Virus record (IMG/VR): IMGVR_UViG_2695420600_000017
Reading direction: 5' to 3' (one strand)
Length of the DNA: 37,554 bases
Source: a virus
Lineage: Duplodnaviria > Heunggongvirae > Uroviricota > Caudoviricetes
In this document: in pieces, positions 2,687 through 37,321 of the stretch
Layout of the letters: each line of letters starts with the position of its first letter
How positions within the stretch are numbered: position 1 is the first letter of the stretch
Translations under genes and position numbers: made by a program
Notes under the pieces: generated by a model
Seen by the model: only the letters and a program-made list of their open reading frames with translations
Databases searched by the model: none
Told to the model about the DNA's origin: nothing

Positions 2687-4741
2687 TTACGCGTTATTCA
2701 CTTCCACCACGATACTGTCAATCAGTACCGGGTAAGTCGCATTTTTAGTGATATCGGTCACGCGCAACTTGTCTGCCGTAAACGTGCCGACCGGAGACTG
2801 CGACAGCATGAATGGTGTCCCGTCCTTACCATCAATGACCGGCGTCACCTCAATACTGTTGTTACCGGCAAAACGGAAGCCCAGCGTATGCCATTCGTTA
2901 TTAAATGCGCCGAATGACCCCAGCTTCGTGTTCTGCGCCGTGTTTCCTTTGTGATACATCACGTTAAGGTCTGTGGCATCGCTCTGTACGTAGAACGATG
3001 CCAGCAGGTTATGACCGGCATTTCCTTCCAGAGTAACCCCTTGCGGCAGGGCAGAAACCGGCCAGTACAGCGCCAGTGCGTACTGATTAGCCGTAAGCGC
3101 GCCATCGAGTTTAAAACGACAACTGACAAGACCACCTTTACCCAGCAGGTCCGCACCATTACCAGCATCATGCTCAAGGTACCAGGGGGCTCTTCCTGTT
3201 TCCTTGGTCAGTTTCATTGCCTTACCCCCGCTAGCTCCGGCATCATCCACGATTTGAGCCTTGCCACCTCCGGCAGCCCAACCCTGTGGTGTCAACCGTC
3301 CTTCAGACTCAGATGCCCGGTAAGCAAATAGCGTACTCATCGTCGTGGTGTCTGCGGGTGGCGTGGACGGTTTTGATGGTGTATCAGGTGACGGCTTCTC
3401 ATCCGGTGGTGTCACGGTCTGCCCGCGCATCAGTTCAGCCGTGCGCCCTGCATGGAGCATAATAGCTGAGGCCAGACGGTCTGAAATGACGCCCCTGCGT
3501 GCCCATGAGCTGAAATGGCTGTCACGCTGTGTCGAAACAAAACTGCCCTGGGTTCGGGATGCTGCACCGTAATACCCGACAGCCACAATATCCGGGTCTT
3601 CCGCCGGAGCATTCGTTGGCGTGCTCTGTCCATTCTCATCCGTCAGGAACGGTACAAAGAAAATTTTCTGTGCTTCCTTGCCTTTGTAGCCACCGTATAC
3701 TGCCTCATATTTATCGGTGCCAGCGTTTTTCCAGTAATACGTGGTATCACCGCAAATCCACGGCACCGTGGTGGCATTTCCACTCACGCACTGCGCAGCA
3801 AGCGGAGCCAGGTCAGTTCTGAACTGCTGAACCATGGCCGTGAATAAACTATTATGCTGCTGGCTTCCTGAGGCAAGGTCTGCCTCTCCCTGCATCCAGA
3901 CCACAGCCAGAAGTTTGTTTTTCGGGTTTTTCGCCAGCGCGACTTTGGTGCGGCTTACCAGGTCCTGATACAGAGGTTTACCGGCCCCCCAGCGTGAAGA
4001 ATCAGCGGAAGCACCGCTGGCCTCACTGAATGAGCCGTCGGCTCCAGTGGTGAATGCTGACCCGCCACGACAACAGGGCACCAGAAGTATCCCCGCATTC
4101 TGTGGGATATAGGGAAGCAGTTTTTTGGCAATATGCAACCCCTGACCGACAGTCCCGTACTGGCCTTTTGCCAGATCAGCTTTCGGGTGGTTTATCCCGC
4201 TCATATCCTGAACATCATGCAGGCAGTGGTCTGCCGGAATGATGTCGTTGTATGTACACGACGTACCGTTGGGCGTTACCGTACTGCGGCGTGCCAGTTG
4301 CTTAATGCGTGGGTCCGGGCGGTCAAACGAATCCGGTAACGGCAGCCCCTCGCCGTAGGCCATGCCATTTGACTGACCCGCGAGAATGACAACAAAGTAA
4401 TATTCCGGCTCTGAACTGCTGCCATTCGTGCTACCGGAAGGCCCGGCGTTATCCGGTGCATTCCAGTCGGAGGGCGTGAGCGTTCCGGCCACGTCAGATG
4501 TGATTGGAATGATGCCAGTCACGCCTGAACTGGTGATTTCTGCACTGGGATTACCGGATACCGGCATTACCCATAATGGCTCTTTCGTGCTGAAGCGGAT
4601 CACGCAGTCTGCGAAGGTGATCCCCCCTTTATTACCCGAAGGGCGGAAAGGGCTTTCAATAAATGCCACCGTGCCACCGGCAACCTTGACTGAAAACTCT
4701 CCGGGCATGGCGGAGAGCATTTTCCACTTGGAGTCTGACAT
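2687..4741 (-). CDS. Prophage sialate O-acetylesterase, NanS-p-like (SGNH/SASA esterase domain with N- and C-terminal accessory domains)
   Basis: 684-aa ORF with VVILAGQSNGMAYGEG (GQSN catalytic-serine block) and VVWMQGEAD (QGE(S/A)D block), characteristic of sialate 9-O-acetylesterases. Sits just beyond the tail-fibre genes, as nanS-p genes do in E. coli prophages. Family assignment is from motifs, not a search. Confidence 0.7.
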   Translation of the reverse strand: MSDSKWKMLSAMPGEFSVKVAGGTVAFIESPFRPSGNKGGITFADCVIRFSTKEPLWVMPVSGNPSAEITSSGVTGIIPITSDVAGTLTPSDWNAPDNAGPSGSTNGSSSEPEYYFVVILAGQSNGMAYGEGLPLPDSFDRPDPRIKQLARRSTVTPNGTSCTYNDIIPADHCLHDVQDMSGINHPKADLAKGQYGTVGQGLHIAKKLLPYIPQNAGILLVPCCRGGSAFTTGADGSFSEASGASADSSRWGAGKPLYQDLVSRTKVALAKNPKNKLLAVVWMQGEADLASGSQQHNSLFTAMVQQFRTDLAPLAAQCVSGNATTVPWICGDTTYYWKNAGTDKYEAVYGGYKGKEAQKIFFVPFLTDENGQSTPTNAPAEDPDIVAVGYYGAASRTQGSFVSTQRDSHFSSWARRGVISDRLASAIMLHAGRTAELMRGQTVTPPDEKPSPDTPSKPSTPPADTTTMSTLFAYRASESEGRLTPQGWAAGGGKAQIVDDAGASGGKAMKLTKETGRAPWYLEHDAGNGADLLGKGGLVSCRFKLDGALTANQYALALYWPVSALPQGVTLEGNAGHNLLASFYVQSDATDLNVMYHKGNTAQNTKLGSFGAFNNEWHTLGFRFAGNNSIEVTPVIDGKDGTPFMLSQSPVGTFTADKLRVTDITKNATYPVLIDSIVVEVNNA

Positions 4742-5045
4742 CGTCTTTTCTGCCTGTTTCTGAATTAAACAGAGTCAGAATAACAACCGCTGATAAATAT
4801 GTGTTTTGCGGAAATTCAAAAAAAGCATCACGGTACTTTTTGTGACGGAGCCGGTTAGGCAGGAACATAACGACAAAGGATGGACAGGCCAATACGATAA
4901 CCGCATATTACCGGCTTATAATTGATTTAACGATTCATGACGCTGCGGTCAGCATCTGAAAATATGCGTTATTTCAGAAACCCCTTGCCTGTATATGGCG
5001 ATATTATTATTCCTGTTTTTATCATTGATTTACATGGTGATGTTT

Positions 5046-5567
5046 ATGCAACTGATTAATGTTAAACGATATTACCCGGAACAAAAACCCTTTGGTAATG
5101 ATGTACAGTATTTTCAAAGTGAAGATGGTAAGGATTTCTATGAGTCCCTGCCATTATTCACCAAAAAATATAAACTTTGCATAACCCCTGACAGCGGTGT
5201 TATCTGCTCAATATCACAGGATGCTTCGGCGCTGTATCCTGCGGGTTTTTCCGTTGTTGAGACAGACGAATTACCTGAAGGTACTGATATTTCAGGTAAC
5301 TGGAAGTTTGATAATGGTGTCATCTCACAACTCCCGGTTAACTATACCAAAAAAGCGGAAGCACTGCGCCAGTCATATCTTAATCAGGCATATGAAAAGA
5401 TTAATGACTGGAGAACTGAGTTACAGCTGGGCACGATTAGTGATGAAAACAGAGCTGCGCTTACACGATGGATGAAATACATCAGTCAGGTGAAAAAAAT
5501 GGAACTACCAGCGATTAAAAACAAAGCTGAATTTGACGCCATTAAATGGCCGGAGAAGCCTGAATAA
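5046..5567 (+). CDS. Tail fibre assembly protein (Mu U/U'-like, Tfa family), opposite strand to the late operon
   Basis: DISGNWKFDNGV and LQLGTISDENRAALTRWMKYISQV resemble recalled Mu U (DISGKWMFKDGVV, LRLGIISDENKQKLTEWM). Start chosen at the ATG with GGTGATG upstream; the track ORF starts at 4995. Confidence 0.7.
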   Translation: MQLINVKRYYPEQKPFGNDVQYFQSEDGKDFYESLPLFTKKYKLCITPDSGVICSISQDASALYPAGFSVVETDELPEGTDISGNWKFDNGVISQLPVNYTKKAEALRQSYLNQAYEKINDWRTELQLGTISDENRAALTRWMKYISQVKKMELPAIKNKAEFDAIKWPEKPE

Positions 5568-5570
5568 CAT

Positions 5571-5600
5571 AAAGGGTGCTTATCGCACCCTTTTCCTTTA
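5571..5600. terminator. Bidirectional intrinsic terminator between convergent tfa (+) and S (-)
   Basis: AAAGGGTGC-TTATC-GCACCCTTT hairpin followed by a T-rich tract on both strands, in the 34-bp gap between the two stop codons. Confidence 0.5.
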
Positions 5601-5601
5601 A

Positions 5602-6513
5602 TCAGACGGATGAAACTGTGCGCCAGGCATTACCGATATATATCTGCACCGGACGGTAATAAACGCCTCCGATATTATCGGCTGAACTTTTCCCGGTATC
5701 CTGCACGTTAATACCTGAAAGCATACAACCAGAAGGTGCACCATAACTCCAGGACATTTCATTACCTCCGGGTGAATGGTAACTCTGGGCACCAAGCTGA
5801 ACGTTGCTAACGTATTTGTTATCAGCAGTAGCTTCAGTCATACCGGAGGTAATGTATATGTCCTGCGTCCCGTCAAAAGGAACGCCATTAATATTTCTTG
5901 GGGTGGAGAGTTTATTCGCGGCAACGGCGGTGCCGTCCGATGGCAGAGCATTCGCCGCCTTATTCACCGTTTCCCGTAAACCGACGTTATCGATAAAAGC
6001 CCCTTTATCCGGAATGTCTGCGCCGTTCTGCTCCCTGCGCAGGTAACGGTTATCACCTTCGCTTTTGCTGTAAACATCCAGATTATTACGGGCGGTTCCC
6101 TTATTCTCCAGGTCGGCGAGATTCTGATCCTTCGCCAGGGCATTAACGTCACCGGGACCAAGACTGTTTTTTGTGGCAAGCGTCCCCAGACCAAGATAAC
6201 CACGGGCCAGACGCTGGGCCTCCGCACCGGCATCAGCAATTTCTTTCAGGTTATTTTTCCGGGAAAAGGCATTCGCAGCGATAATGGCTTTAATGGACAG
6301 CGTAAGCTGGTTTAACTGCGCCTTATCCGGCTGAATACTGGCTTCAGCCAGAATATTCAGCAGTTCGGCCTGGAGAATATTCAGCCAGTCCTGACCAATC
6401 CAGCTGATACCTTTTTGTCCGTCACCTTCGGTAAACCAGGTGGTGGTATTACTCTGCGCCGGTGCCAGCGCAGGCATATTCGCCACGCCGGAATTATTAT
6501 CAACATGAAACAT
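5602..6513 (-). CDS. S: Tail fibre protein (Mu S-like; constant N-terminal part plus short variable C-terminal part)
   Basis: Follows the R-like gene in Mu order. 303 aa versus about 500 in Mu. A gix-like site lies at about codon 176, the position of the Sc/Sv junction in Mu. Confidence 0.7.
   Translation of the reverse strand: MFHVDNNSGVANMPALAPAQSNTTTWFTEGDGQKGISWIGQDWLNILQAELLNILAEASIQPDKAQLNQLTLSIKAIIAANAFSRKNNLKEIADAGAEAQRLARGYLGLGTLATKNSLGPGDVNALAKDQNLADLENKGTARNNLDVYSKSEGDNRYLRREQNGADIPDKGAFIDNVGLRETVNKAANALPSDGTAVAANKLSTPRNINGVPFDGTQDIYITSGMTEATADNKYVSNVQLGAQSYHSPGGNEMSWSYGAPSGCMLSGINVQDTGKSSADNIGGVYYRPVQIYIGNAWRTVSSV
5971..5996. other. gix-like (Gin/Hin/Cin/Pin-family) crossover-site sequence inside the tail-fibre gene
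   Basis: TTCCCGTAAACCGACGTTATCGATAA matches the recalled Mu gix site TTCCTGTAAACCGAGGTTTTGGATAA at 22 of 26 positions, including the central GA. Confidence 0.45.
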
Positions 6514-27282: not shown

Positions 27283-27634
27283 TCGTGGCCGCCTTACTGA
27301 TTTGTGAAATGAGTTGCAGGGTACGTTGCTGGTTTGCCAGCACCAGACGGGCTTCGTCCCGTTCACGCACAAGCACATGATTATTGTCTTCAAGACGCTG
27401 TGTCTTCTGGTGCATTCCCCATACCACGGCAGCCAGCACGCTCATCACCCCCAGCGCCGCCATACACCCTCCGGCAATCAGGGCCGGTAAGGGATTATTC
27501 ACCGCAGCCACAGCACACCCCGGAGCACTACAACGACACACAACAGCGCAATCATGAGTGGTCGCCAGAAGCGGTTCAGACTTTCGGCAAATCGTAGCGA
27601 CACAACCATTCATCCGCCGAACGGCGGGCCTCAA
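27113..27634 (-). CDS. Putative i-spanin (Rz-like: N-terminal TM helix plus coiled coil); start may be internal
   Basis: TM segment LPALIAGGCMAALGVMSVLAAVVW followed by a charged helical region (LEDNNHVLVRERDEARLVLANQQ); directly downstream of lys. Confidence 0.55.
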   Translation of the reverse strand: MRPAVRRMNGCVATICRKSEPLLATTHDCAVVCRCSAPGCAVAAVNNPLPALIAGGCMAALGVMSVLAAVVWGMHQKTQRLEDNNHVLVRERDEARLVLANQQRTLQLISQISKAATNEKQQNMQHSEEQQSIVRRSLATVPAASVPVPDDVADRVRRAVCEIRPCAAGADPR

Positions 27635-28076
27635 GACCGGGGAGTTTTACCCCCTTTGAATAAATCCAGCGGATATACTGCTTACAGGACCCGGGCATCT
27701 GCCCGGCATTGATAAGGCGCAGGAGCGTGGAGTTGCGAAAGTTCGTTTCACCGGCCCAGAAAATCCAGGAGGCCAGCGCCACCGTCTGACCACGGGTAAG
27801 CGGCACCTGAACATGACGATCGATAGCCGCAAAGGCCCATTTCATGTCCTTTTCCAGCAGCTCCAGACATTCTTCATCAGTTTTTGTCATCCCCGGTTTC
27901 ACATCCGGGCCGGTATGGCCGTAACAGATGGTGGGGGTGCCGGTGGGATCAATGTACGTGGTGTTTTCTTTCCCTTCCCAGTAGCCGGTGTAGTGCGTGG
28001 CAATGGTGAACGTCCCGGCTCCGGCCAGAACAAGGGCAATCAGCTTTTTACGCAGGGGTGCGGGGAGTTTTGGCAT
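27576..28076 (-). CDS. lys: Endolysin, T4-lysozyme-like muramidase with N-terminal signal-anchor (SAR-type)
   Basis: N-terminal hydrophobic LIALVLAGAGTFTIA; catalytic E...D...T spacing in WEGKENTTYIDPTGTPT; GETNFRNSTLLRLINAG block. Confidence 0.8.
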   Translation of the reverse strand: MPKLPAPLRKKLIALVLAGAGTFTIATHYTGYWEGKENTTYIDPTGTPTICYGHTGPDVKPGMTKTDEECLELLEKDMKWAFAAIDRHVQVPLTRGQTVALASWIFWAGETNFRNSTLLRLINAGQMPGSCKQYIRWIYSKGVKLPGLEARRSADEWLCRYDLPKV

Positions 28077-28147
28077 TGTTACGCTGTCTCATGGTGTTCT
28101 CTGAGTCAGCGTAACCGTGGGAAAAAGTGGGCAGGATTTGCGGAATA

Positions 28148-28570
28148 TCAGAAAAGCCGTGGCTGCGTGCGTTCCTGATGCAGGCGACGCTGGTTGCGGA
28201 TAACGGAGTAAATCTGCGTCTCTGACATCTGGTAGTGGCGGCGCAGGGTTTCAATTTTTTCGCCCTGGCTCCAGCGGGAAAAAATTTCATTATTGCGCAG
28301 TTCGGTGAAAAGGGATTCACCGACCGGGAGATAATAACCACGCCCGCCCATGTACCCGGCCTGTGCGGCTGCAACCTTACGGGCAAGCATTCCCGCCTGA
28401 GCAGGTTCAATCCCCTGACGGTGCAGTTCAGCACTGATCACATCAACCAGGTCCCGCAGCGTGCCGGGCCAGTTCTTTTTCAGCTCATCATCAGGAATAT
28501 CATCCAGACGGTCAATCAGCGCGTGCAGCTGTTCGCTGTCACCAAACATGCTCATCTGTGTTTCAGCCAT
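28148..28570 (-). CDS. mor: Mor/C-family transcriptional activator (positional Mor; the only member of the family in the window)
   Basis: 140 aa directly downstream of gemA; MFGDSEQLHALIDRL N-terminus and C-terminal HTH (ETLRRHYQMSETQIYSVIRNQRRL) resemble recalled Mu Mor. Confidence 0.7.
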   Translation of the reverse strand: MAETQMSMFGDSEQLHALIDRLDDIPDDELKKNWPGTLRDLVDVISAELHRQGIEPAQAGMLARKVAAAQAGYMGGRGYYLPVGESLFTELRNNEIFSRWSQGEKIETLRRHYQMSETQIYSVIRNQRRLHQERTQPRLF

Positions 28571-28640
28571 ACCCGCCTCCGGTCATCATTACACAGGGCA
28601 AGTTTAAAATAAAAATCCCGCGCTGTGGCGGGATTTGGGG

Positions 28641-29153
28641 TTAAAAGGGGGAGGATTCTTCATACAGCCTGCAAACGCGCTCATAACTCATCACTGTACG
28701 CGCTGACATCCCCAGCACATCCAGCATCTTGCGGCGGTGCCAGCGTTTGAGACGCTCCAGCACATCAGAGGCCAGCGCGGGGTGTTGTTCCAGCCACTGC
28801 CAGTTAGCCACACCTTCGCCGCCGTTCTGAGCGGCCGTCTGCGATTTCACCCAGCGGTTAAGGGCTGTTTCCCCGCCATCAGAGATAAAGCCCTGCCGGT
28901 GCATCACCTTCCAGATGGCGCGAATTTTGGCGGTCACCGTACCCGGTTTTAAGGCCCGGTTAACCGGCTTCTGACGCACTTTAAAACCGCGTTTTTTGAA
29001 AACATCCAGCACGCGGGATAACTCATCCGGTGACATATCCCGGCAACTGGGTTTGCCGGTGGCTGCCAGTAGTACGGATGTGTAGGTCTCATGGTCAAGC
29101 TGTAGATCGCGTTTTGCGACATGTATTAAGGTAATCAGGGAAGCGCGATTCAT
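28641..29153 (-). CDS. gemA: GemA-like protein (Mu gp16, gene expression modulator)
   Basis: 170 aa immediately upstream of the Mor-like gene, as in Mu. Confidence 0.6.
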   Translation of the reverse strand: MNRASLITLIHVAKRDLQLDHETYTSVLLAATGKPSCRDMSPDELSRVLDVFKKRGFKVRQKPVNRALKPGTVTAKIRAIWKVMHRQGFISDGGETALNRWVKSQTAAQNGGEGVANWQWLEQHPALASDVLERLKRWHRRKMLDVLGMSARTVMSYERVCRLYEESSPF

Positions 29154-29217
29154 TATCGTGTCTCCGTAACAACAGGCGGCATGGCAACGCCGCCCGGATA
29201 AAACTAAAGGTATCGAT

Positions 29218-29628
29218 ATGAAAATAGATTACGATGAAGTATTAAGTATTCTCACAACTTTTCAGGATGCTGAAACACCTTTCCTTACACTACAGGATCT
29301 GGGCATGGCTGAGGCAGAAGGAGAGGAAAAGGATAAAAAAGTTTTTCATCTTATGCTTCTCGCTGATAATGGCTCAATTGTTAATGGTGATATGCGGTCA
29401 GAAACACCAAAATATATTGGTTTCTTTTTTCATTCTCTGGGCGTTGGTTTCAGAAACACGCCCATTATGCTTACTCAGCAGGGGCATGATTTAGCTAACG
29501 CCCTGAGAAAAAAACCAATCCTTGAAAGAATCAAAAAGGAGTTTACAGACGCGCCATTTGATCTAATCAAAGAAGTTACCAAATCAATGTTAACCAGGTT
29601 CGTCAAAGAACGTATTGGGATTGACTAA
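29218..29628 (+). CDS. Hypothetical protein (136 aa), antisense-oriented gene inside the early operon, low-GC island
   Basis: ORF with AAAGG SD; about 40% GC locally against about 55-60% around it; its 3' end overlaps the convergent 102-aa gene by 39 bp. Confidence 0.5.
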   Translation: MKIDYDEVLSILTTFQDAETPFLTLQDLGMAEAEGEEKDKKVFHLMLLADNGSIVNGDMRSETPKYIGFFFHSLGVGFRNTPIMLTQQGHDLANALRKKPILERIKKEFTDAPFDLIKEVTKSMLTRFVKERIGID

Positions 29629-29898
29629 ACAACTTAATTCAGCCAGTAATCGCAGGGCGGCGACAGCCGCCTGCTTGTCACTTCTTTTAGCTATTTCCGC
29701 AAGGGTATGCACAATCCATAACGGACTTAACGCTACGGCTGAATCCAGAATCATGTCATCCATAATAATTTCTGGCATATCCCGCTTGTCACATTCTTTA
29801 TCCATAAAAGAAACGAATTTTTCAGCATCTTCCGGTTTCATCCCTCCGGCGATAAGGATTTTGCGATATTCATAAGACGATCTTAATTCAATACTCAT
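29590..29898 (-). CDS. Hypothetical protein (102 aa), low-GC island
   Basis: ORF in the AT-rich segment; no recognisable motif. Confidence 0.45.
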   Translation of the reverse strand: MSIELRSSYEYRKILIAGGMKPEDAEKFVSFMDKECDKRDMPEIIMDDMILDSAVALSPLWIVHTLAEIAKRSDKQAAVAALRLLAELSCLVNPNTFFDEPG

Positions 29899-29913
29899 TA
29901 TTCACCTGCCTGC

Positions 29914-30306
29914 TTAATCTGTTTCCAGTGCTTTGCTACGAGCTATAGCCTCACATTCAAAAAATACCGACTCCGGCACGCGCCCTTTTAATTCACGAAC
30001 AAGGAAGTCATTAACGCGTTCATGACGTCTTATATTTCTTTCCTTTTCCTCCTGGCGCAATACAGCAAGGCGGTATTCAACAGCCCGGCGTTGTTTCTGA
30101 AAGACAGCCAGTGCTTTTCTGGCAGCATTACGCCATGCATCATCGCCACATGGTGCGTATTCAAGCTGAAATTTAATCTCTTCAATAGTTTCTTTGATTT
30201 TTGCCAGCAAGCTAAGACAGTCGCTTATTGTCTCCAGCTTTTCATTATCAATATAACTTCTCACGCATTCACCTCCCGTAATTCCGGTAAAGCCGAAATA
30301 TGACAC
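29914..30306 (-). CDS. Hypothetical protein (130 aa), low-GC island
   Basis: ORF in the AT-rich segment; predicted helical and charged (RRAVEYRLAVLRQEEKERNIRRHER). Confidence 0.5.
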   Translation of the reverse strand: MSYFGFTGITGGECVRSYIDNEKLETISDCLSLLAKIKETIEEIKFQLEYAPCGDDAWRNAARKALAVFQKQRRAVEYRLAVLRQEEKERNIRRHERVNDFLVRELKGRVPESVFFECEAIARSKALETD

Positions 30307-30590
30307 CAGTGCGTCACCTGTCCGTCTTCATCTTCAAGGCAGGCTCCGGTTTCTTCATCAACAAAAAAGCCTTCATACCCCATATGGCCGATGCGCAGCT
30401 CCTGACGGTGACCATACTGAACAATCAGCACGACAGCCTCCATATCAGGTGGGAAAGCATCATTCAGTGAATGCCAGGGATAACCGCGTAAATCCCCGAA
30501 ATAAACACCGGTCAGCGTTCCGCCACAGAGCGGCATTCCGGCGGCACACACAAGAGGTTCATCTGATTCAACAAATAAGGTCGTTATCAT
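30261..30590 (-). CDS. Hypothetical protein (109 aa)
   Basis: ORF in the early semi-essential region; start overlaps the upstream gene stop. Confidence 0.45.
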   Translation of the reverse strand: MITTLFVESDEPLVCAAGMPLCGGTLTGVYFGDLRGYPWHSLNDAFPPDMEAVVLIVQYGHRQELRIGHMGYEGFFVDEETGACLEDEDGQVTHWCHISALPELREVNA

Positions 30591-31138
30591 GGCGTTAACT
30601 CCCGTAATACAGCGTCCTCGGCAGTCCGGCGACGGTAATAAACTGCGTGAGCAGAATGTTCAGATATTCCAAACTTTTCGCCAATTTCCCGGAATGACAG
30701 ACGGCGTGGGTAATCGGAATCACGCAGCGCACGTATAAGACGTACATCATCATCAGATATGTGCGTGCCGGGGCGTAACTCTCCGCACTTTGTTAATCCA
30801 GCACCAATCATTCCTGCCCGACATCTGACAGAATCTTTATTACGTCCGAGATATTCTCCCATTTGCTGGCAGGTCATTGTTCTGGCATTTTTTCGAATAA
30901 ACTTATCTTCATCAGGTGTAAATCTTGGGTGTTTATATTTCAGTAACTCCGGGTATGAACTGCGCAATACACCAGTCCGGTTATATACAGCCCAGACAGT
31001 TCTTTTTATTCTGGCAGCAATATCCTTAACCGGGGTGGATGAATAAAGCGCAATCAGCAGCGCATCTTCTTCAGGTGTCCACGGACGGACATGAGCGGGG
31101 GCGCGACCTTTTAGTCCCATGGGTTGTAATTTCATCAT
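30587..31138 (-). CDS. DNA-binding protein with three tandem Myb/SANT-like HTH repeats
   Basis: Three repeats of about 45 aa: WTPEEDALLIALY...AVYNR, FTPDEDKFIRKNA...MGEYLGR, ISDDDVRLIRALR...EIGEKFGIS...AVYYRR. Confidence 0.55.
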   Translation of the reverse strand: MMKLQPMGLKGRAPAHVRPWTPEEDALLIALYSSTPVKDIAARIKRTVWAVYNRTGVLRSSYPELLKYKHPRFTPDEDKFIRKNARTMTCQQMGEYLGRNKDSVRCRAGMIGAGLTKCGELRPGTHISDDDVRLIRALRDSDYPRRLSFREIGEKFGISEHSAHAVYYRRRTAEDAVLRELTP

Positions 31139-31141
31139 GCA

Positions 31142-31657
31142 TCACCCCCTGACTCGCTTTTCAGCAGCATAAAACTCATCAGACAGTATTTCGGTCATTT
31201 TCTGTTTTGCGGGTTTTACGCCGCACTGAAGGTAAATCACATCGTCAACGCAGAACCACTTCACAGGGCCAAACAGGATTGCCGAGAAATCAATACCCAA
31301 CCAGAACAACAGCGCATCGGTTCTGGCATACGTGACGGGCGAATATTCACGCCACAGACTGTTCAGTTCATCAGAGGCAACACGCAGGGTTTTAGGGATA
31401 CGTGATGTGCGCGGTGTGCAGCTCCAGCCATTCGACGCAGTCGGTTTTCGCCATAAGTCGCGATGAAAAGGATATTTGTCCTCCGTAAAACGCAGTCCCT
31501 TAAAGTAAAATCCACTGATACCGGATACAAATACCGACCGGCACGCAACATTCAGCACGGCCTCAAGGCGTTTTGCCTCATCCTTAACTTTCTGGCAGTC
31601 CTGCTGGTATTTTTGCCACGCAGCCAGCGCGGAAGGGTTTGATGTTTTAAAGAACAT
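31142..31657 (-). CDS. Hypothetical protein (171 aa)
   Basis: ORF in the early region, coupled to its neighbours. Confidence 0.5.
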   Translation of the reverse strand: MFFKTSNPSALAAWQKYQQDCQKVKDEAKRLEAVLNVACRSVFVSGISGFYFKGLRFTEDKYPFHRDLWRKPTASNGWSCTPRTSRIPKTLRVASDELNSLWREYSPVTYARTDALLFWLGIDFSAILFGPVKWFCVDDVIYLQCGVKPAKQKMTEILSDEFYAAEKRVRG

Positions 31658-32190
31658 TACGCCACCTCCGCAGATATCCCGGCAGGCGCTGCTGTCCGGT
31701 CAACAATCAGGTAGCGCAGAACATGTTCAGTGATATTCCAGCCGCTTAAACCGCAGATAATGACGCCCAGGCGTATGTCGATATACGCCATCACAAACTG
31801 GGGCACGCCTTCTTTCATGGCCTGCTCATCAACTTCAGCCACCACATAAACGGTTTCACAGGTCAGAACGCCCTGAGCAAATTCCCACGCCATCGACGGA
31901 ATATCATGCCCCTCAATCCATGGCAGGGATTTTCTGAAGCCGCACCACTGAACATCATCAGCCGCAGATTCCTGGCTGCATTTGCGACGAACCGGCTGCA
32001 CCGGGCGGGGGCGCGGAATATCATAAAAACCGTTACATTCCGTCAGCACGCCTGCATCAACCGCATCACGCAGAAAATAAACCATGGAGGATGGCGGCAT
32101 ATTCATTTTTTCAGCCAGTACACCGCAGGTCAGGCGGCCATAAATACACAGCCAGTTTTTAACCCCTTCAAGCACTTTTGCATCAATCAT
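31657..32190 (-). CDS. Hypothetical protein (177 aa)
   Basis: ORF in the early region downstream of gam. Confidence 0.5.
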   Translation of the reverse strand: MIDAKVLEGVKNWLCIYGRLTCGVLAEKMNMPPSSMVYFLRDAVDAGVLTECNGFYDIPRPRPVQPVRRKCSQESAADDVQWCGFRKSLPWIEGHDIPSMAWEFAQGVLTCETVYVVAEVDEQAMKEGVPQFVMAYIDIRLGVIICGLSGWNITEHVLRYLIVDRTAAPAGISAEVA

Positions 32191-32335: not shown

Positions 32336-32866
32336 TTATTTATTCAGTCCGGCGTCCTGTTCAAAAGGCTCGACATAAAAACTTTCAGCGCCTTTATTCA
32401 CCTTGATACCGGCAATGCCTTTCACAGCATCCGGCTCCGCCAGGACGGCTTCCTTGTTCACTTCCTCTTTCGTGCGGATGAAACGCTCAAGCCCCATACG
32501 GCGCAGCATTTCAATCACACCTTCCACATCACGGCTGACGCTGCATGATGGCGTTCCCAGCCGCCATGACACCGTTCCGGTGGTCAGATTGGCTGTTTTG
32601 GTTTTGCCGCCGTTCGTCAGCTCATCACGGTTGGTTTTGCACCAGTCCTGAATCCCTTTAAAAAGCACTTTGATTTGCTTTTTAAGATTTTCAATCTGCG
32701 GCGTATAACGGGCGGTGATTTCTGCCACTTCGTCATTCATCGCCGTTTCCAGGCGCAGCGCCTCTCGCTGAATATCTCCCAGGGTGCGGATATCACGGCT
32801 GACTTCTTCCCGGGTCTGCGGTGCCGCCTCGGCTGCGGCCTTTAATTTTGTAACGCGTTTAGCCAT
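32336..32866 (-). CDS. gam: Gam, host-nuclease inhibitor (Ku-like DNA end-binding protein)
   Basis: Blocks such as RDIRTLGDIQREALRLETAMNDEVAEIT, NRDELTNGGKTKTANLTTGTVSWR and ERFIRTKEEVNKEA match recalled Mu Gam. Confidence 0.9.
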   Translation of the reverse strand: MAKRVTKLKAAAEAAPQTREEVSRDIRTLGDIQREALRLETAMNDEVAEITARYTPQIENLKKQIKVLFKGIQDWCKTNRDELTNGGKTKTANLTTGTVSWRLGTPSCSVSRDVEGVIEMLRRMGLERFIRTKEEVNKEAVLAEPDAVKGIAGIKVNKGAESFYVEPFEQDAGLNK

Positions 32867-33994: not shown

Positions 33995-34222
33995 TTAGCT
34001 GACTTGTTTCGCACCAACAGAACGGCATATTCCGCTGTAAACTTCTGTCGCACCTTCGCGATCAAGTCCGGCAGATATCACCATTCGTGTGCGGTCATTA
34101 AATTCAAAAAGTAAATCGCCACATTCTTTATTTTCGGCCAGTGAAATCACCTTCACGTTATCGAAATTAACCAGGTAAAAGCGTCCGTAAATATCAGGAA
34201 TATTAAATACCGCCATAATCAC
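33995..34222 (-). CDS. Small protein immediately downstream of B (position of Mu kil)
   Basis: 75 aa; positional analogy only. Confidence 0.4.
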   Translation of the reverse strand: MIMAVFNIPDIYGRFYLVNFDNVKVISLAENKECGDLLFEFNDRTRMVISAGLDREGATEVYSGICRSVGAKQVS

Positions 34223-35160
34223 ACCTGTGAGAGTAATTCAGGGTTGGTATAAACCTCTTTAAAGGCCGCATTAATATGTTTTTCTGTCAGCGCCGCGCCT
34301 TCACCGCTGGCGGTGAGCCACGCCTGGTTAAGCGTATGTGTCAGAACGCGTAACGCTCCCGGCTTTTCAGCGATAGCCTGCATGACGGCCAGCTCGGCCT
34401 CACCACTGATCCCCCACGCCATGGCAATGGCCAGCACATCCGCCTTTTTGGCCTTGCGAAGTTGTTTTGTACGGGCAAGACGGCTGAACAGGCGCGATAA
34501 ATCATCAAAGGCGCGGCGTCCACCTTTAAACAATCCGCGCGGGTTACCAATAAGCACCATCCCGATCCCCGTGGCGTCCTGAATTGCCCGGAGTTGCTCC
34601 AGACCGTCAATACCAAGATGATCCGCCTCATCCACAATCACCAGTCCACGCGTTCCCATCAGGCGACGGCGGATGGCGCGGGATAATGCCCCTTTGTTCG
34701 CGCGGGTGTAATCAATCCCCAGCGCATCGGCCAGCTCCAGCAGACACTCCGTGACGCTGGAGTGCGCGGGTGACAGGGTGATCATCCAGGTGTTTGGTTG
34801 CTCCTGGCAGTAATTACGGGCAGTGGCCGTTTTACCCACACCCGGTACGCCCACAATAACGTTAATACAGCCCATCAGGCGAACCGCCTGAAACAGTGCG
34901 CGCAGCTCCTGGACTGTCTGAGTTTCCACAAACTGCGGCGGTTCCGGCAGTGCGCTTTGTTTATTCCAGTTCTCATACCAGGAGCGCAGGGAAGCAGCCA
35001 CAGCAGCGTTATCGCCTTTATATTTTCCCTTACGGAAAGCCGATAATGTGCCGTCGGAAATTCCCGCCTCTCTGGCGATGGCATACTGCGTCAGTACGCC
35101 GCCATCAATAAGTTCATCAATGGTCTTGATTACATCGTTAATATCGGTCATATTATTCAC
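34219..35160 (-). CDS. B: MuB-like ATP-dependent target-DNA activator (AAA+)
   Basis: 313 aa; Walker A GVPGVGKT and Walker B LVIVDEADHL; N-terminal HTH; directly downstream of the transposase. Confidence 0.9.
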   Translation of the reverse strand: MNNMTDINDVIKTIDELIDGGVLTQYAIAREAGISDGTLSAFRKGKYKGDNAAVAASLRSWYENWNKQSALPEPPQFVETQTVQELRALFQAVRLMGCINVIVGVPGVGKTATARNYCQEQPNTWMITLSPAHSSVTECLLELADALGIDYTRANKGALSRAIRRRLMGTRGLVIVDEADHLGIDGLEQLRAIQDATGIGMVLIGNPRGLFKGGRRAFDDLSRLFSRLARTKQLRKAKKADVLAIAMAWGISGEAELAVMQAIAEKPGALRVLTHTLNQAWLTASGEGAALTEKHINAAFKEVYTNPELLSQV

Positions 35161-35233: not shown

Positions 35234-37321
35234 TCAGGCCAGCGGATCACTTTCTTTTAATTTCGCTTCGAGCAGTTGCAATCCCCGCTGGAAATTACGC
35301 TCGTATTCTTCATCAGGTTCATCGTCAGCGACCGGTTGCTGAACGGTCACCGTATTACCCACAGGGCGGTATATGTTTTCCAGCCAGGGCTCCTGCGGCT
35401 TGTGCTCCAGCACGTTGACAACCTCATCCTCGGCATCACGGATTTTTTCCTCTGCGCGTTTACGCATGCCTTTAAGGCGCTGCTGCTGTTTGTAGTATTC
35501 CGCGCTGACAGGGAAGGCTTCGCGTTTATTGCCGTCCCATACCGCCTCGCAAATCACGCTGCCATCCGGGCGGCGCACGGTAATTCGTTCGGCATCATGA
35601 ATGTCATAGCTGATAAGTACCTTACGGCCATGCTCGTCACGCAGCTCGGGCGCGTAGTAAATATTATTCAGCCAGCGTATTTCACAGCGTCTTACAGGGC
35701 GCTCCACCATCGGCCGGAACATATCCCGCAGTTCAACATCGGACAGCCATTCAATTTCCGTGTCCTCTTCCGCCAGGCGTTTTTTTCTGAACTCCGCCGG
35801 GCTGTAATGTTTACCGTTCGGCTTCATGGGTAATTCATCGTGCGGCCGGTTGTTGTACCACTCAACACCGTCACGAATGGCATCAATCAGTTCAGACCAG
35901 GACGGTAAATCACGCATCGCTGACTGCTGCCGGGCGTTCAGCCGTTTGCCCTGTTGCAGGGCACTGAATGCCGAGCGTAAATCGCGGTTGGTTTTACGTA
36001 ACGTCTCGCGATCTGCTCCTTTCCCGAAATAGGTGCGGTATTTACGGGCTATGCGCATCGGTAATGTGCGGTTAAGCCGTTCGATAATGCCCCGTCCCTG
36101 CGGATTACCGGCAATCCCTGTCGGGTGATTAATCCCCAGTCGTGGCAGTATCCCCACAATCTCCTTATCCAGGACGTCGGCGGTTTCCCCGGAGCCATTA
36201 TCCGAGTAATACAGAAACGGTTTGCCATGATGGCGAATACCGTGCTGTATGGCACCGGCTACGGCGAAAACATTTTCAGCCAGGTCAAGGCTCCAGCCCA
36301 CCACAAAGCGCGTGCCACCGTCGATAACAAAGGTCACTTCCGGTGCGAATGGCCGCCCGTGAACCGGGTGCGCGCATTTCAGCTTCATGCCGTGACCGTC
36401 ACCAATCCAGACATAATTCACCGGCATTTTTGACCAGTCGCGGCGCGTGAATCCCTCAAGCTGGCGGTATTCACTGCCGGTAACCCGTCCTTTTTGTTTC
36501 ACCACTTCCGGCAGTTTCTTCATTGCGCGGCGAATGGTGTCATAAGACGGCATGATATCGAGCATATAAGGCTCATCAGCGTGCCGGTGCTGCCATTCGG
36601 CAACAAAATCCTCGTAAGCCTCGGTCATTGGTCGGCCGTTTGACTGGCGATACTGCGCCAGAAATTCGGGCAACCAGTTAATATCTTCGGCTTTTATTTC
36701 CTGGCGTTTACCTGGTGCCAGCAAAAGCAGGCGTTCAGCAGCGTTCTGTGCCTTATTAAAGGCCGCAATCCAGCGTTTCAGCGTGATTTCACTCAACACG
36801 CGACTGTTTCCCTTTCTGGCGTTCGCTATCTCAACCATTGCCACAATGCGCTCATCCAGTTGCGAGTGTGACAGGCGGTCAACGATGAACCGGATAGCTT
36901 TAGCGCAGCTGAAACCGGGTTGTTGCGTGAATTTCAGCACCTCACTGACGATCGCAATGCGTGCGTCTGCCACCTGGCGCTGGTTTTCAGTCAGGGCATT
37001 GAGGCGTTCGACCATCAGTTGTGGTGATCCGCGATATGCCTCCACCGCATCAACCACGGCAGACGAGCGTCTGGCCTTTGTCACCACCGGAGCCGGTGAT
37101 TCATCGGCTTTTTGCGTCATCAGTTGCAGGGCATAACGTTCGCGTAATGCCTGCTGTGTCACTTCAGGTAAACAGTCAATGCTGTATTCAAAACCTTTAG
37201 CGCCTTTCTTGCGGCGTCTGCTGGTTTCGCTGGTTGCATACTTCCTGATTGAATAGCGAACGCCTTGCTCCGTTCCCGGCATCCCCGGTAATCCAACCAG
37301 TTCTTTGACTGAAGCAAACAT
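35234..37321 (-). CDS. A: MuA-like DDE transposase
   Basis: 695 aa between ner and B; size and position as MuA (663 aa recalled). Confidence 0.9.
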   Translation of the reverse strand: MFASVKELVGLPGMPGTEQGVRYSIRKYATSETSRRRKKGAKGFEYSIDCLPEVTQQALRERYALQLMTQKADESPAPVVTKARRSSAVVDAVEAYRGSPQLMVERLNALTENQRQVADARIAIVSEVLKFTQQPGFSCAKAIRFIVDRLSHSQLDERIVAMVEIANARKGNSRVLSEITLKRWIAAFNKAQNAAERLLLLAPGKRQEIKAEDINWLPEFLAQYRQSNGRPMTEAYEDFVAEWQHRHADEPYMLDIMPSYDTIRRAMKKLPEVVKQKGRVTGSEYRQLEGFTRRDWSKMPVNYVWIGDGHGMKLKCAHPVHGRPFAPEVTFVIDGGTRFVVGWSLDLAENVFAVAGAIQHGIRHHGKPFLYYSDNGSGETADVLDKEIVGILPRLGINHPTGIAGNPQGRGIIERLNRTLPMRIARKYRTYFGKGADRETLRKTNRDLRSAFSALQQGKRLNARQQSAMRDLPSWSELIDAIRDGVEWYNNRPHDELPMKPNGKHYSPAEFRKKRLAEEDTEIEWLSDVELRDMFRPMVERPVRRCEIRWLNNIYYAPELRDEHGRKVLISYDIHDAERITVRRPDGSVICEAVWDGNKREAFPVSAEYYKQQQRLKGMRKRAEEKIRDAEDEVVNVLEHKPQEPWLENIYRPVGNTVTVQQPVADDEPDEEYERNFQRGLQLLEAKLKESDPLA

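What the first reader, a model, noticed from the sequence alone, without database searches (positions are those of the whole stretch)
29200..30306. Low-GC three-gene island with an antisense gene inside the early operon
About 1.1 kb at roughly 40% GC sits in an otherwise 55-60% GC phage. It encodes a plus-strand 136-aa protein opposed to the early transcript, whose 3' end overlaps a convergent 102-aa gene by 39 bp, plus a 130-aa gene. None has a motif I recognise. The region between B and gemA is a known accessory hotspot in Mu-like phages, so these are candidates for a lysogen-expressed exclusion or anti-defence module.
Basis: partly seen in the sequence, partly recalled or inferred. Interest (0 to 1): 0.6.

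Follow-up and report, generated by a model that had tools for sequence, protein, structure and literature searches.

The report
Backwards winged-helix gene in Mu-like prophage
The low-GC patch is not one island but three separately swappable early-region genes of a Mu-like prophage, and only the backwards-facing one stands out: an exchangeable accessory gene for a small winged-helix protein (DUF2513 family) of untested function.

Summary
Window 29200-30306 has 41.2% GC, the lowest 1.1-kb stretch of this 54% GC Mu-like prophage. The three ORFs and the 39-bp convergent overlap are real, although the "130-aa" gene most likely starts at the ATG at 30264 (116 aa).

The three genes are not a unit. 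The two minus-strand genes (phrog_1988, phrog_6158) are ordinary co-directional early-operon genes, present in about 220 of 5426 complete E. coli genomes, and each is swapped independently.

The plus-strand gene fills a variable slot between phrog_1988 and gemA. In relatives that slot is empty, holds other genes, or holds this same antisense gene. The antisense arrangement recurs in Mu-like phages of Escherichia, Citrobacter, Klebsiella, Edwardsiella, Pantoea and Kluyvera, down to 31% identity.

The overlap is a by-product: the neighbour's tail is the antisense reading of the DUF2513 C-terminus.

Best reading: a long-resident, exchangeable, moron-like gene transcribed independently, probably from the prophage. 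No promoter was found, and no exclusion or anti-defence role is shown.

The parts
29218..29628 (+). DUF2513-family gene (136 aa), antisense to the early operon. The predicted fold is a winged helix with three C-terminal helices. It is the only occupant of the variable slot between the phrog_1988 gene and gemA.
29590..29898 (-). 'Partner' early gene (102 aa, phrog_1988), co-directional with the early operon. It carries the conserved motif DKxAAVAAL. Its last 13 codons are the antisense reading of the DUF2513 C-terminus.
   Evidence: The homologue in O157-type prophages is 110 aa with an unrelated tail beyond residue 76.
29590..29628 (.). 39-bp convergent 3' overlap of the DUF2513 gene and the partner gene.
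   Evidence: Overlaps of 39, 30, 45, 29 or 18 bp, or a 3-bp gap, occur in other lineages.
29914..30264 (-). Early gene of phrog_6158. It is 116 aa from the ATG at 30264; the open frame extends to a GTG at 30306 (130 aa). It is an independently exchangeable cassette.
   Evidence: About 40% identical homologues occur in phages Fraca, AsXd-1, SaltyDalty and Fostie. It is replaced, together with the next gene, by a 61-aa gene in other E. coli prophages.
30261..30590 (-). Upstream early gene (109 aa, phrog_6925), translationally coupled (ATGA) to the 116-aa gene.
29175..29194 (.). GC-rich palindrome GGCGGC-N8-GCCGCC in the 64-bp gap between the gemA and DUF2513 start codons. On the early (minus) RNA it folds as a 10-bp stem followed by GUUGUUAC. 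Its role is unknown.
   Evidence: Equivalent stems with base changes occur in L006 and L040, but not in other lineages.
29652..29690 (+). Hairpin (core GGCGGC-GACA-GCCGCC, 29656-29671) followed by a T-rich tail, 24 nt downstream of the DUF2513 stop codon. It is a weak candidate terminator for the plus-strand transcript. It is also the coding sequence of the partner's DKQAAVAAL motif.
   Evidence: It did not pass the terminator scan, and it is also present in phages that lack DUF2513.
29126..29140 (.). Left mosaic breakpoint relative to O157-type Mu-like prophages, inside the 5' end of gemA.
   Evidence: BLASTN and alignment.
29650..29656 (.). Right mosaic breakpoint, inside the 3' part of the partner gene. 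The sequence to its right is shared at about 93% identity with about 230 E. coli genomes.
28641..29153 (-). gemA (gp16 family), the gene the early transcript reaches after crossing about 436 nt that lie antisense to DUF2513 and have no minus-strand ORF of 40 aa or more outside the partner's end.
   Evidence: Pfam GemA 2.8e-28; ORF list.
28148..28570 (-). mor (middle/late transcription activator).
   Evidence: Pfam Mor 6.7e-31.

Best explanation
The 1.1-kb low-GC patch is three neighbouring, independently exchangeable cassettes of the 'semi-essential' early region of a Mu-like prophage. It is not a functional island.

Two cassettes (phrog_1988 and phrog_6158) are ordinary genes read with the early operon.

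The third is a single gene placed backwards in a variable slot directly upstream of gemA-mor. It behaves like a moron. It is compact and AT-rich, it is present, replaced or deleted among close relatives, and its orientation uncouples it from the early promoter.

Inferred, not shown: it is transcribed on its own, most plausibly in the lysogen while the early promoter is repressed, and it is shut down by convergent early transcription after induction.

Its product is a 136-aa DUF2513 protein with a winged-helix fold like TubR, MarR and PadR. Inferred: it binds DNA, or another macromolecule, probably as a dimer through its terminal helices, and it acts as a small regulator of host, own or incoming-phage genes.

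The 39-bp overlap is a structural by-product. When the cassette was placed, the upstream gene lost its native end and now reads through the antisense of the conserved DUF2513 C-terminal helix until it meets a stop codon.

The arrangement is old. It is shared by Mu-like phages of at least six enterobacterial genera.
For: Anatomy and independence of the three genes.

Slot between partner and gemA. It is empty in L110-114. It holds antisense DUF2513 in L063-71, L087-90, L093-96, L100 and L103. It holds 65- and 98-aa genes in the O157 type, a 100-aa gene with or without an antisense 88-aa ORF in the L097 type, and 130- and 161-aa genes in L091. Close backbones differ in slot content (L093-96 against L097-109). 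L067 has a near-precise natural deletion of the DUF2513 ORF. Truncated 115-aa variants occur in more than 125 contigs.

Same antisense position in Mu-like phages. It is seen in loci from Citrobacter braakii, Pantoea rodasii, Edwardsiella anguillarum and Kluyvera genomes. It is also seen in Klebsiella phage Kp4866-3, in an amidase-type Mu-like phage, and in metagenomic contigs.

Age: DUF2513 divergence of 32-65% is on the scale of gemA (27-79%) and the partner (21-52%).

Composition: the gene is lower in GC than its locus in 17 of 17 loci.

Accessory behaviour outside Mu. In Klebsiella phage ST846-OXA48phi9.2 the homologue lies between the lysis genes and terminase. In marine gammaproteobacteria it lies beside GNAT genes, in one case 1.3 kb from a Kiwa KwaB gene, and in one case two genes from a PDC candidate.

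Overlap as a by-product: the partner tails are codon-for-codon antisense of the DUF2513 C-terminus, and they vary or vanish across lineages.
Against: No sigma-70-like promoter was found upstream of the gene, and in several lineages the gap to gemA is only 15-30 bp. Independent transcription, and its timing, are therefore unproven.

The downstream hairpin fails the terminator scan, is largely dictated by Ala codons, and exists without DUF2513.

The family is mostly acidic (median pI 5.3; 80% below 6). The helix equivalent to the recognition helix is largely hydrophobic, and the first helix of a canonical HTH is not predicted. DNA binding is therefore not assured.

A gene kept at exactly one position, in one orientation, down to 31% identity is more conserved than a typical moron. 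That leaves room for a position-dependent role.
Confidence: 0.55

Rival explanations
1. Position-dependent brake on the lytic cascade. The backwards gene sits directly before gemA-mor so that convergent transcription from it, the roughly 436-nt untranslated and C-rich stretch it imposes on the early mRNA (a possible Rho entry site), or binding of its winged-helix product nearby limits read-through from the early operon into mor. That would time or damp the switch to middle and late genes.
For: In every Mu-like locus the gene is antisense and lies directly upstream of gemA, or of mor in Kluyvera, where it moved together with the partner gene.

No minus-strand ORF of 40 aa or more covers 29153-29590 apart from one at the partner's end. 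GC skew on the plus strand is +0.17 over 29200-29500, so the early RNA there has C in excess of G.

A stem-loop followed by GUUGUUAC sits just before the gemA ribosome-binding site. A strong terminator-like hairpin sits between gemA and mor.

In L014 the partner and DUF2513 are retained although the rest of the semi-essential region is gone.
Against: Closely related backbones do without it. The slot is empty or filled with co-directional translated genes in relatives. A deletion variant exists (L067), as do truncated alleles.

Homologues occur in non-Mu contexts, co-directional with their neighbours.

L014 has shortened GemA and Mor and looks like a decaying prophage.

The intergenic hairpin is absent from most lineages and is not significant against shuffles (z -1.6).
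Confidence: 0.2
2. One reading: the three genes together form a lysogen-expressed superinfection-exclusion or anti-defence module.
For: The location is an accessory hotspot. The GC is low. All three proteins lack a known function. Some distant DUF2513 homologues lie near defence genes: Kiwa KwaB in L044 and a PDC candidate in L047.
Against: The three genes are inherited and replaced independently. Two of them are on the early-operon strand, so they would not be expressed in a repressed lysogen. PADLOC gave no hit for any of them. DUF2513 usually occurs as a single gene with no conserved effector partner outside Mu-like phages.
Confidence: 0.1
3. The DUF2513 protein is an acidic inhibitor, for example a nucleic-acid mimic or a binder of a host or defence protein, rather than a DNA-binding regulator. 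It would be expressed constitutively from its own promoter at infection and in lysogeny.
Against: The best fold matches are DNA-binding regulators. The conserved R-L-T-x-x-G segment lies at the end of the predicted wing and the start of the next helix, which from memory resembles the corresponding segment of MarR-family proteins. There is no similarity to any catalogued anti-defence or defence family.
Confidence: 0.12

Closest known systems
Morons of temperate phages (in the sense used for lambdoid phages: an extra gene with its own transcription signals inserted between two genes of a phage operon, often of deviant base composition and expressed from the prophage)
   Same: It is a single extra gene in a slot that is empty or differently filled in close relatives. 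Its GC is 5-15 points below its surroundings. It is uncoupled from the operon around it. A homologue in a Klebsiella phage lies between the lysis genes and terminase, a position I recall as a classic moron site in lambdoid phages.
   Different: It is inverted inside the early operon of a transposable phage. No promoter was recognised and there is only a weak terminator-like hairpin. It has been kept at the same position across at least six genera down to 31% identity, which is unusually stable for a moron.
MarR / PadR / TubR-type winged-helix DNA-binding proteins
   Different: It matches no MarR, PadR or TubR sequence model. It is acidic, with a hydrophobic recognition-helix equivalent, and the first helix of the HTH is not predicted. 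No operator or ligand is known.
Pfam DUF2513 (PF10711) and the related YjcQ family (PF09639)
   Same: RefSeq names the protein DUF2513. 62 of 102 homologues match PF10711, and one also matches YjcQ.
   Different: The window protein itself scores below the Pfam gathering threshold (23.3 against 29.6 bits). It also carries about 35 extra C-terminal residues (helices 99-133) beyond the 100-position model.
Opposite-strand overlapping genes olg1 and gene 10 of the B3-like transposable phage Fc02 of Pseudomonas aeruginosa (PMC9936078)
   Same: Both are transposable phages with a gene on the strand opposite the early lytic operon that overlaps an early gene. In Fc02 the forward-strand genes are transcribed in the lysogen, and olg1 and gene 10 are reported to mediate superinfection exclusion.
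   Different: In Fc02 the genes lie in the repressor/ner control region and overlap completely. Here the gene lies at the far end of the early operon, next to gemA, and overlaps by only 39 bp. No homology between the two was looked for, and no expression or exclusion data exist for the gene here.
Semi-essential early region of phage Mu (between B and gemA; from memory it includes kil, gam, sot, arm, cim and lig)
   Same: The genomic position is the same, and Gam, gp11-C, GemA and Mor homologues flank it. It shows gene-by-gene mosaicism.
   Different: tblastn against 50,697 phage records returned no Escherichia phage Mu or D108 record for any of the three proteins. As far as I recall, Mu has no antisense gene in this region.

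Membership tests
Pfam DUF2513 (PF10711) | Whole-protein score at or above the curated gathering threshold (29.6 bits) | tested here: not met
   23.3 bits, E 8.5e-5, covering residues 2-111 and model positions 1-96 of 100.
Pfam DUF2513 (PF10711) | Homology to family members shown through intermediate sequences | tested here: met
   A profile search found 255 representatives. 62 of 102 aligned homologues match PF10711 at E<=1e-3, best 9.2e-15. RefSeq names identical proteins DUF2513.
MarR/PadR/TubR-type winged-helix regulators | Winged-helix fold | tested here: met
MarR/PadR/TubR-type winged-helix regulators | Match to the family's sequence models | tested here: not met
   No MarR, PadR or TubR Pfam or NCBIfam hit at E<=0.1. 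The PDB profile search found nothing relevant.
MarR/PadR/TubR-type winged-helix regulators | Sequence-specific DNA binding as a dimer | not testable with these tools
   Indirect only: the family is acidic, and one palindrome lies upstream in only 3 lineages.
Moron (autonomously transcribed accessory gene in a phage operon) | Present in some and absent from other closely related phages at the same site | tested here: met
   6 against about 230 E. coli genomes. Five slot states. Deletion variant L067.
Moron (autonomously transcribed accessory gene in a phage operon) | Base composition distinct from the flanks | tested here: met
   GC 0.384 against 0.55 for gemA and mor. It is lower than the locus in 17 of 17 loci.
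Moron (autonomously transcribed accessory gene in a phage operon) | Own promoter and terminator | tested here: inconclusive
   No sigma-70 consensus site upstream. The downstream hairpin with a T-rich tail is not called by the scan and is confounded by coding sequence.
Moron (autonomously transcribed accessory gene in a phage operon) | Expression from the repressed prophage | not testable with these tools
   This needs strand-specific RNA-seq of a lysogen.
Known anti-phage defence systems (PADLOC-DB 2.0) | Match to a defence-system protein model | tested here: not met
   No hit at E<=0.1 for any of the six proteins encoded in 29218-31657.
Phage Mu semi-essential-region gene families | Homologue present in Mu or D108 itself | tested here: not met
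   tblastn of the three proteins against the phage collection returned no Escherichia phage Mu or D108 record. The flanking Gam, gp11-C, GemA and Mor do match Mu families.

The most novel reading that the evidence does not exclude
The backwards DUF2513 gene may be a conserved control element of one branch of Mu-like phages, not just cargo. On this reading it is a prophage-expressed winged-helix protein, together with the convergent transcription unit that makes it, placed head-to-head with gemA-mor. It would either gate read-through of the early operon into the late-gene activator, or define a new single-gene superinfection-immunity or exclusion family. Its fixed position and orientation down to 31% identity, and its co-movement with the partner gene in Kluyvera, would then reflect function rather than history.
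Probability: 0.15. Interest if true: 0.6.

Novelty: new member of a known kind. Interest (0 to 1): 0.3.

Why it matters
If the best explanation is right, this is a clean, well-delimited case of an accessory hotspot in transposable phages, the slot between phrog_1988 and gemA. One recurrent occupant of that slot is a DUF2513 gene, for which the papers searched hold no functional study.

It gives DUF2513 a confident fold and a defined genetic context. Natural presence, absence and deletion variants in E. coli make the gene easy to test.

It also shows that low GC and an antisense orientation do not by themselves mark a recently imported defence island. It shows too that a conserved convergent overlap can be a simple by-product of cassette insertion.

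It would matter more if the gene proves to control the early-to-late switch or to exclude other phages.

Tried and rejected
1. Defence or anti-defence annotation. PADLOC gave nothing for the six proteins of the region. NCBIfam gave nothing meaningful.

2. Literature. Searches for DUF2513, PF10711 and WP_000687317 found no functional study. The SfMu paper does not discuss an antisense gene. The Fc02 paper is an analogy only.

3. Solved structures by sequence gave nothing for any of the three proteins. The BFVD fold search was uninformative. The afdb50 library was unavailable.

4. Known RNA families. Rfam found only chance-level hits in 28000-31000.

5. Promoter search. The consensus scan found nothing upstream of the plus-strand gene. 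Inspecting upstream sequences across lineages showed only conservation explained by gemA coding and the two Shine-Dalgarno sequences.

6. The idea that the two GGCGGC/GCCGCC palindromes bracket a mobile cassette. They are the only two in the window. However, the right one encodes the partner motif AAVAAL and exists in phages without DUF2513, and the left one is lineage-specific. I rejected this as a defining feature.

7. The idea that the hairpin in the AAVAAL region is selected as RNA structure. Some synonymous-site changes are compensatory (GCG/GCC against GCA/GCT). But four of the six pairs are forced by Ala codons, several variants carry mismatches, and the sequences are not independent. 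This is left open.

8. The idea that partner and DUF2513 form an obligate pair, such as a toxin-antitoxin-like system. The partner occurs without DUF2513 in most E. coli prophages, and DUF2513 occurs without the partner outside Mu-like phages. Rejected.

9. Fused domains that might hint at function. The longer family members showed no informative extra Pfam domain.

Full report
**1. What the window is**

The 37.5-kb window is essentially a Mu-like prophage read with its genes on the minus strand.
- Transposase A is the long ORF at 35234-37321, and B is at 34219-35160 (ORF list). They were identified because profiles seeded with these two window ORFs hit the Mu-transposase and AAA genes of related loci.
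- Gam is at 32336-32866, a gp11-C protein at 31657-32190, GemA at 28641-29153 and Mor at 28148-28570.
- The ORF at 27576-28076 corresponds to a gene annotated lysozyme in a 99%-identical prophage. Mom is at 440-1372.

**2. Check of the observation**

The stretch 29200-30306 has 41.2% GC against 54.0% for the window. It is the lowest of 3645 sliding windows of the same length. The 200-bp profile falls from 0.53-0.63 to 0.375-0.47 exactly between 29100 and 30300.

The dip is real, but it sits on an early region that is already GC-poorer (0.42-0.54) than the late region (0.55-0.66). Two other patches fall below 0.45.

The three ORFs and the 39-bp convergent overlap (29590-29628) are as described. 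RefSeq annotation of a 99%-identical prophage starts the third gene at the ATG at 30264 (116 aa), overlapping the stop of the upstream gene by ATGA.

**3. The three genes are not one unit**

Against 5426 complete E. coli genomes, the right-hand part (29654-30400) is found in 232 genomes at about 93% identity. The part carrying the plus-strand gene (29100-29654) is found in only 6.

In the common O157-type Mu-like prophage the plus-strand gene is replaced by two small co-directional genes (65 and 98 aa), and the neighbouring gene is 110 aa with a different tail. The breakpoints lie at about 29126-29140, inside the 5' end of gemA, and at about 29654, inside the 3' part of the 102-aa gene.

The 116-aa gene is a separate cassette. 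About 90 of 217 genomes keep the 102-aa gene but carry a 61-aa gene in place of the 116- and 109-aa genes.

The two minus-strand proteins belong to PHROG families of unknown function: phrog_1988 (E 8e-38) and phrog_6158 (E 3e-54). They have no Pfam, NCBIfam, PADLOC or PDB match. They are therefore ordinary in-operon early genes of E. coli Mu-like prophages, although tblastn returned no Escherichia phage Mu or D108 record for either.

**4. The slot next to gemA is a hotspot**

I collected 52 viral contigs through the 102-aa "partner" protein. In them the interval between the partner gene and gemA takes several forms:
- empty (L110-114);
- antisense DUF2513 (L063-71, L087-90, L093-96, L100, L103);
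- the 65- and 98-aa genes of the O157 type;
- a 100-aa gene with or without a different antisense 88-aa ORF (L097 type);
- 130- and 161-aa genes (L091, L107).

Closely related backbones differ in slot content (L093-96 against L097-109). One contig (L067) has a near-precise deletion of the DUF2513 ORF yet keeps the partner's overlapped tail, so it is a deletion derivative. Truncated 115-aa alleles occur in more than 125 contigs. This is accessory-gene behaviour.

**5. The antisense arrangement is nevertheless old and widespread**

Wherever a DUF2513 homologue occurs in a Mu-like phage, it is antisense and sits between the partner gene and gemA. The cases are:
- loci from Citrobacter braakii, Pantoea rodasii and Edwardsiella anguillarum genomes;
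- Klebsiella phage Kp4866-3, with 31% identity and a 29-bp overlap;
- an amidase-type Mu-like phage, with 35% identity and a 45-bp overlap;
- several metagenomic contigs.

In two Kluyvera genomes the order is gemA, partner, antisense DUF2513, mor, so the gene moved together with the partner.

Pairwise divergence of DUF2513 (32-65% identity) is on the same scale as gemA (27-79%) and the partner (21-52%). The gene has therefore lived in this phage lineage for a long time.

Its GC is 5-15 points below the surrounding locus in all 17 loci tested, including non-Mu contexts. The low GC is a property of the gene, not a mark of recent import.

**6. The overlap**

The partner's last residues are the codon-for-codon antisense reading of the DUF2513 C-terminus. 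Examples are NPNTFFDEPG, NIKPVFDELS and HTEFIFKELG against ...RFVKERIGID and ...KFIKNRLDVE.

The DUF2513 C-terminal helix is part of the confidently predicted fold and is conserved even where there is no overlap. The partner tail is absent in L009, different in the O157 type, and of variable length elsewhere. I read the overlap as a by-product of cassette insertion that has simply been inherited.

**7. The protein**

A profile search of 1.84 billion representatives found 255 relatives. Nearly all are stand-alone proteins of 130-145 aa. Of 102 aligned members, 62 match PF10711 (DUF2513), and one also matches YjcQ. The window protein itself is below the Pfam threshold.

Foldseek ranks MarR-family chains first, with probability up to 0.99 and E about 1e-2.

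Nearly invariant residues are H44, G68, R84 and G89. The R-L-T-x-x-G segment lies at the end of the predicted wing and the start of the next helix.

Three points argue against simple DNA binding. The family is acidic (median pI 5.3). The helix preceding the wing is largely hydrophobic. No first HTH helix is predicted.

There is no PADLOC hit and no functional literature in the library searched.

**8. Transcription signals**

No sigma-70-like site precedes the gene. In several lineages only 15-30 bp separate its start from the gemA start.

Downstream, a GC hairpin with a T-rich tail lies 24 nt after the stop codon, and similar hairpins occur in other lineages. However, it coincides with the codons for the partner motif DKxAAVAAL, is mostly dictated by Ala codons, and exists without DUF2513.

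The early mRNA must cross about 436 nt antisense to the gene without a long ORF. That stretch has C in excess of G, and it is followed by a stem-loop just before the gemA ribosome-binding site. This keeps a position-dependent "brake" model alive.

**9. Contexts outside Mu**

- In Klebsiella phage ST846-OXA48phi9.2 the homologue lies between the lysis genes and terminase. From memory that is a classic moron site in lambdoid phages.
- In Vibrio, Alcanivorax, Methylomonas and other gammaproteobacteria it is co-directional with its neighbours.
- In those genomes it lies next to GNAT acetyltransferases, a baseplate module, a Sir2-like gene or a transposase.
- In one case it is 1.3 kb from a Kiwa KwaB gene, and in another two genes from a PDC candidate.

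No conserved partner emerges from these contexts.

**10. Verdict**

The interesting element is one gene, not three.

It is best described as a long-resident, exchangeable, moron-like gene for a DUF2513 winged-helix protein, inserted backwards in the hotspot next to gemA. Independent, probably lysogenic, expression and a regulatory or binding function are inferences. Exclusion and anti-defence roles are untested and have no direct support.

I rate it a new member of a known kind, with modest interest. The natural presence, absence and deletion variants in E. coli make it easy to test.

Noticed in passing
window 28613-28636 (minus strand): There is a strong intrinsic-terminator-like site, a 9-bp GC-rich stem followed by TTTTTATTTT, in the 70-bp gap between the gemA stop codon and the mor start codon. 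It lies inside what should be the end of the early operon. Its fold z-score against shuffles is -2.3.
   Followed up: partly
window 29175-29194 and 29656-29671: The pattern GGCGGC-N(2-12)-GCCGCC occurs only twice in the 37.5-kb window (0.07 expected by chance), and the two copies bracket the DUF2513 ORF. The right copy encodes the partner motif AAVAAL and also exists in phages without DUF2513. The left copy is present, with base changes that keep pairing, only in L006 and L040.
   Followed up: partly
L067 2760-2900 (IMGVR_UViG_3300012089_000042): This is a natural near-precise deletion of the DUF2513 ORF. The partner gene keeps its overprinted tail NPNTFFDEPG, and the upstream hairpin is now followed by TGTTTTTAC directly before gemA.
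   Followed up: partly
L097 3023-3289 (minus strand in the locus, antisense to the early genes): In a related backbone the same slot next to gemA holds a different antisense 88-aa ORF. It overlaps the 3' end of a co-directional 100-aa gene by 62 nt and has no Pfam match. The sister locus L101 lacks it.
   Followed up: partly
L051 3019-5226 and L052 (Kluyvera genomes): The gene order is rearranged to gemA, partner, antisense DUF2513, mor, with an 18-bp overlap. The partner and DUF2513 stayed together while their position relative to gemA changed.
   Followed up: partly
L014 4344-6608 (Logan ERR117522 contig): This prophage has lost the whole semi-essential region between B and the partner gene, yet it keeps the partner and antisense DUF2513. 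Its GemA (112 aa) and Mor (106 aa) are shortened, so it may be a decaying element.
   Followed up: no
L115 4979-6682 (Klebsiella phage Kp4866-3, OK490420.1, unannotated and UNVERIFIED): This deposited phage genome is Mu-like (A, B, GemA and Mor detected). It carries the same module of mor, gemA, antisense DUF2513 and partner.
   Followed up: partly
L044 1019-3788 (Vibrio MAG) and L047 4001-5840 (Alcanivorax sp. DG881): Distant DUF2513 homologues lie close to defence genes. In L044 a Kiwa KwaB gene (E 2e-94) lies 1.3 kb downstream. In L047 a PDC-S02/S11 candidate lies two genes downstream.
   Followed up: partly
window about 300-2700 and about 4360-6100: These are two other low-GC patches (below 0.45) of the prophage. 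The first contains Mom (440-1372) and an unassigned plus-strand 97-aa ORF (1588-1881). The second contains a plus-strand tail-fibre assembly gene (4995-5567) and an unassigned 303-aa gene.
   Followed up: no
protein cluster of window 29218-29625: Truncated 115-aa alleles of the DUF2513 protein occur on more than 125 E. coli contigs, alongside the full-length 136-aa form, which is found on well over 1000 contigs in E. coli, Shigella sonnei and Salmonella enterica.
   Followed up: no
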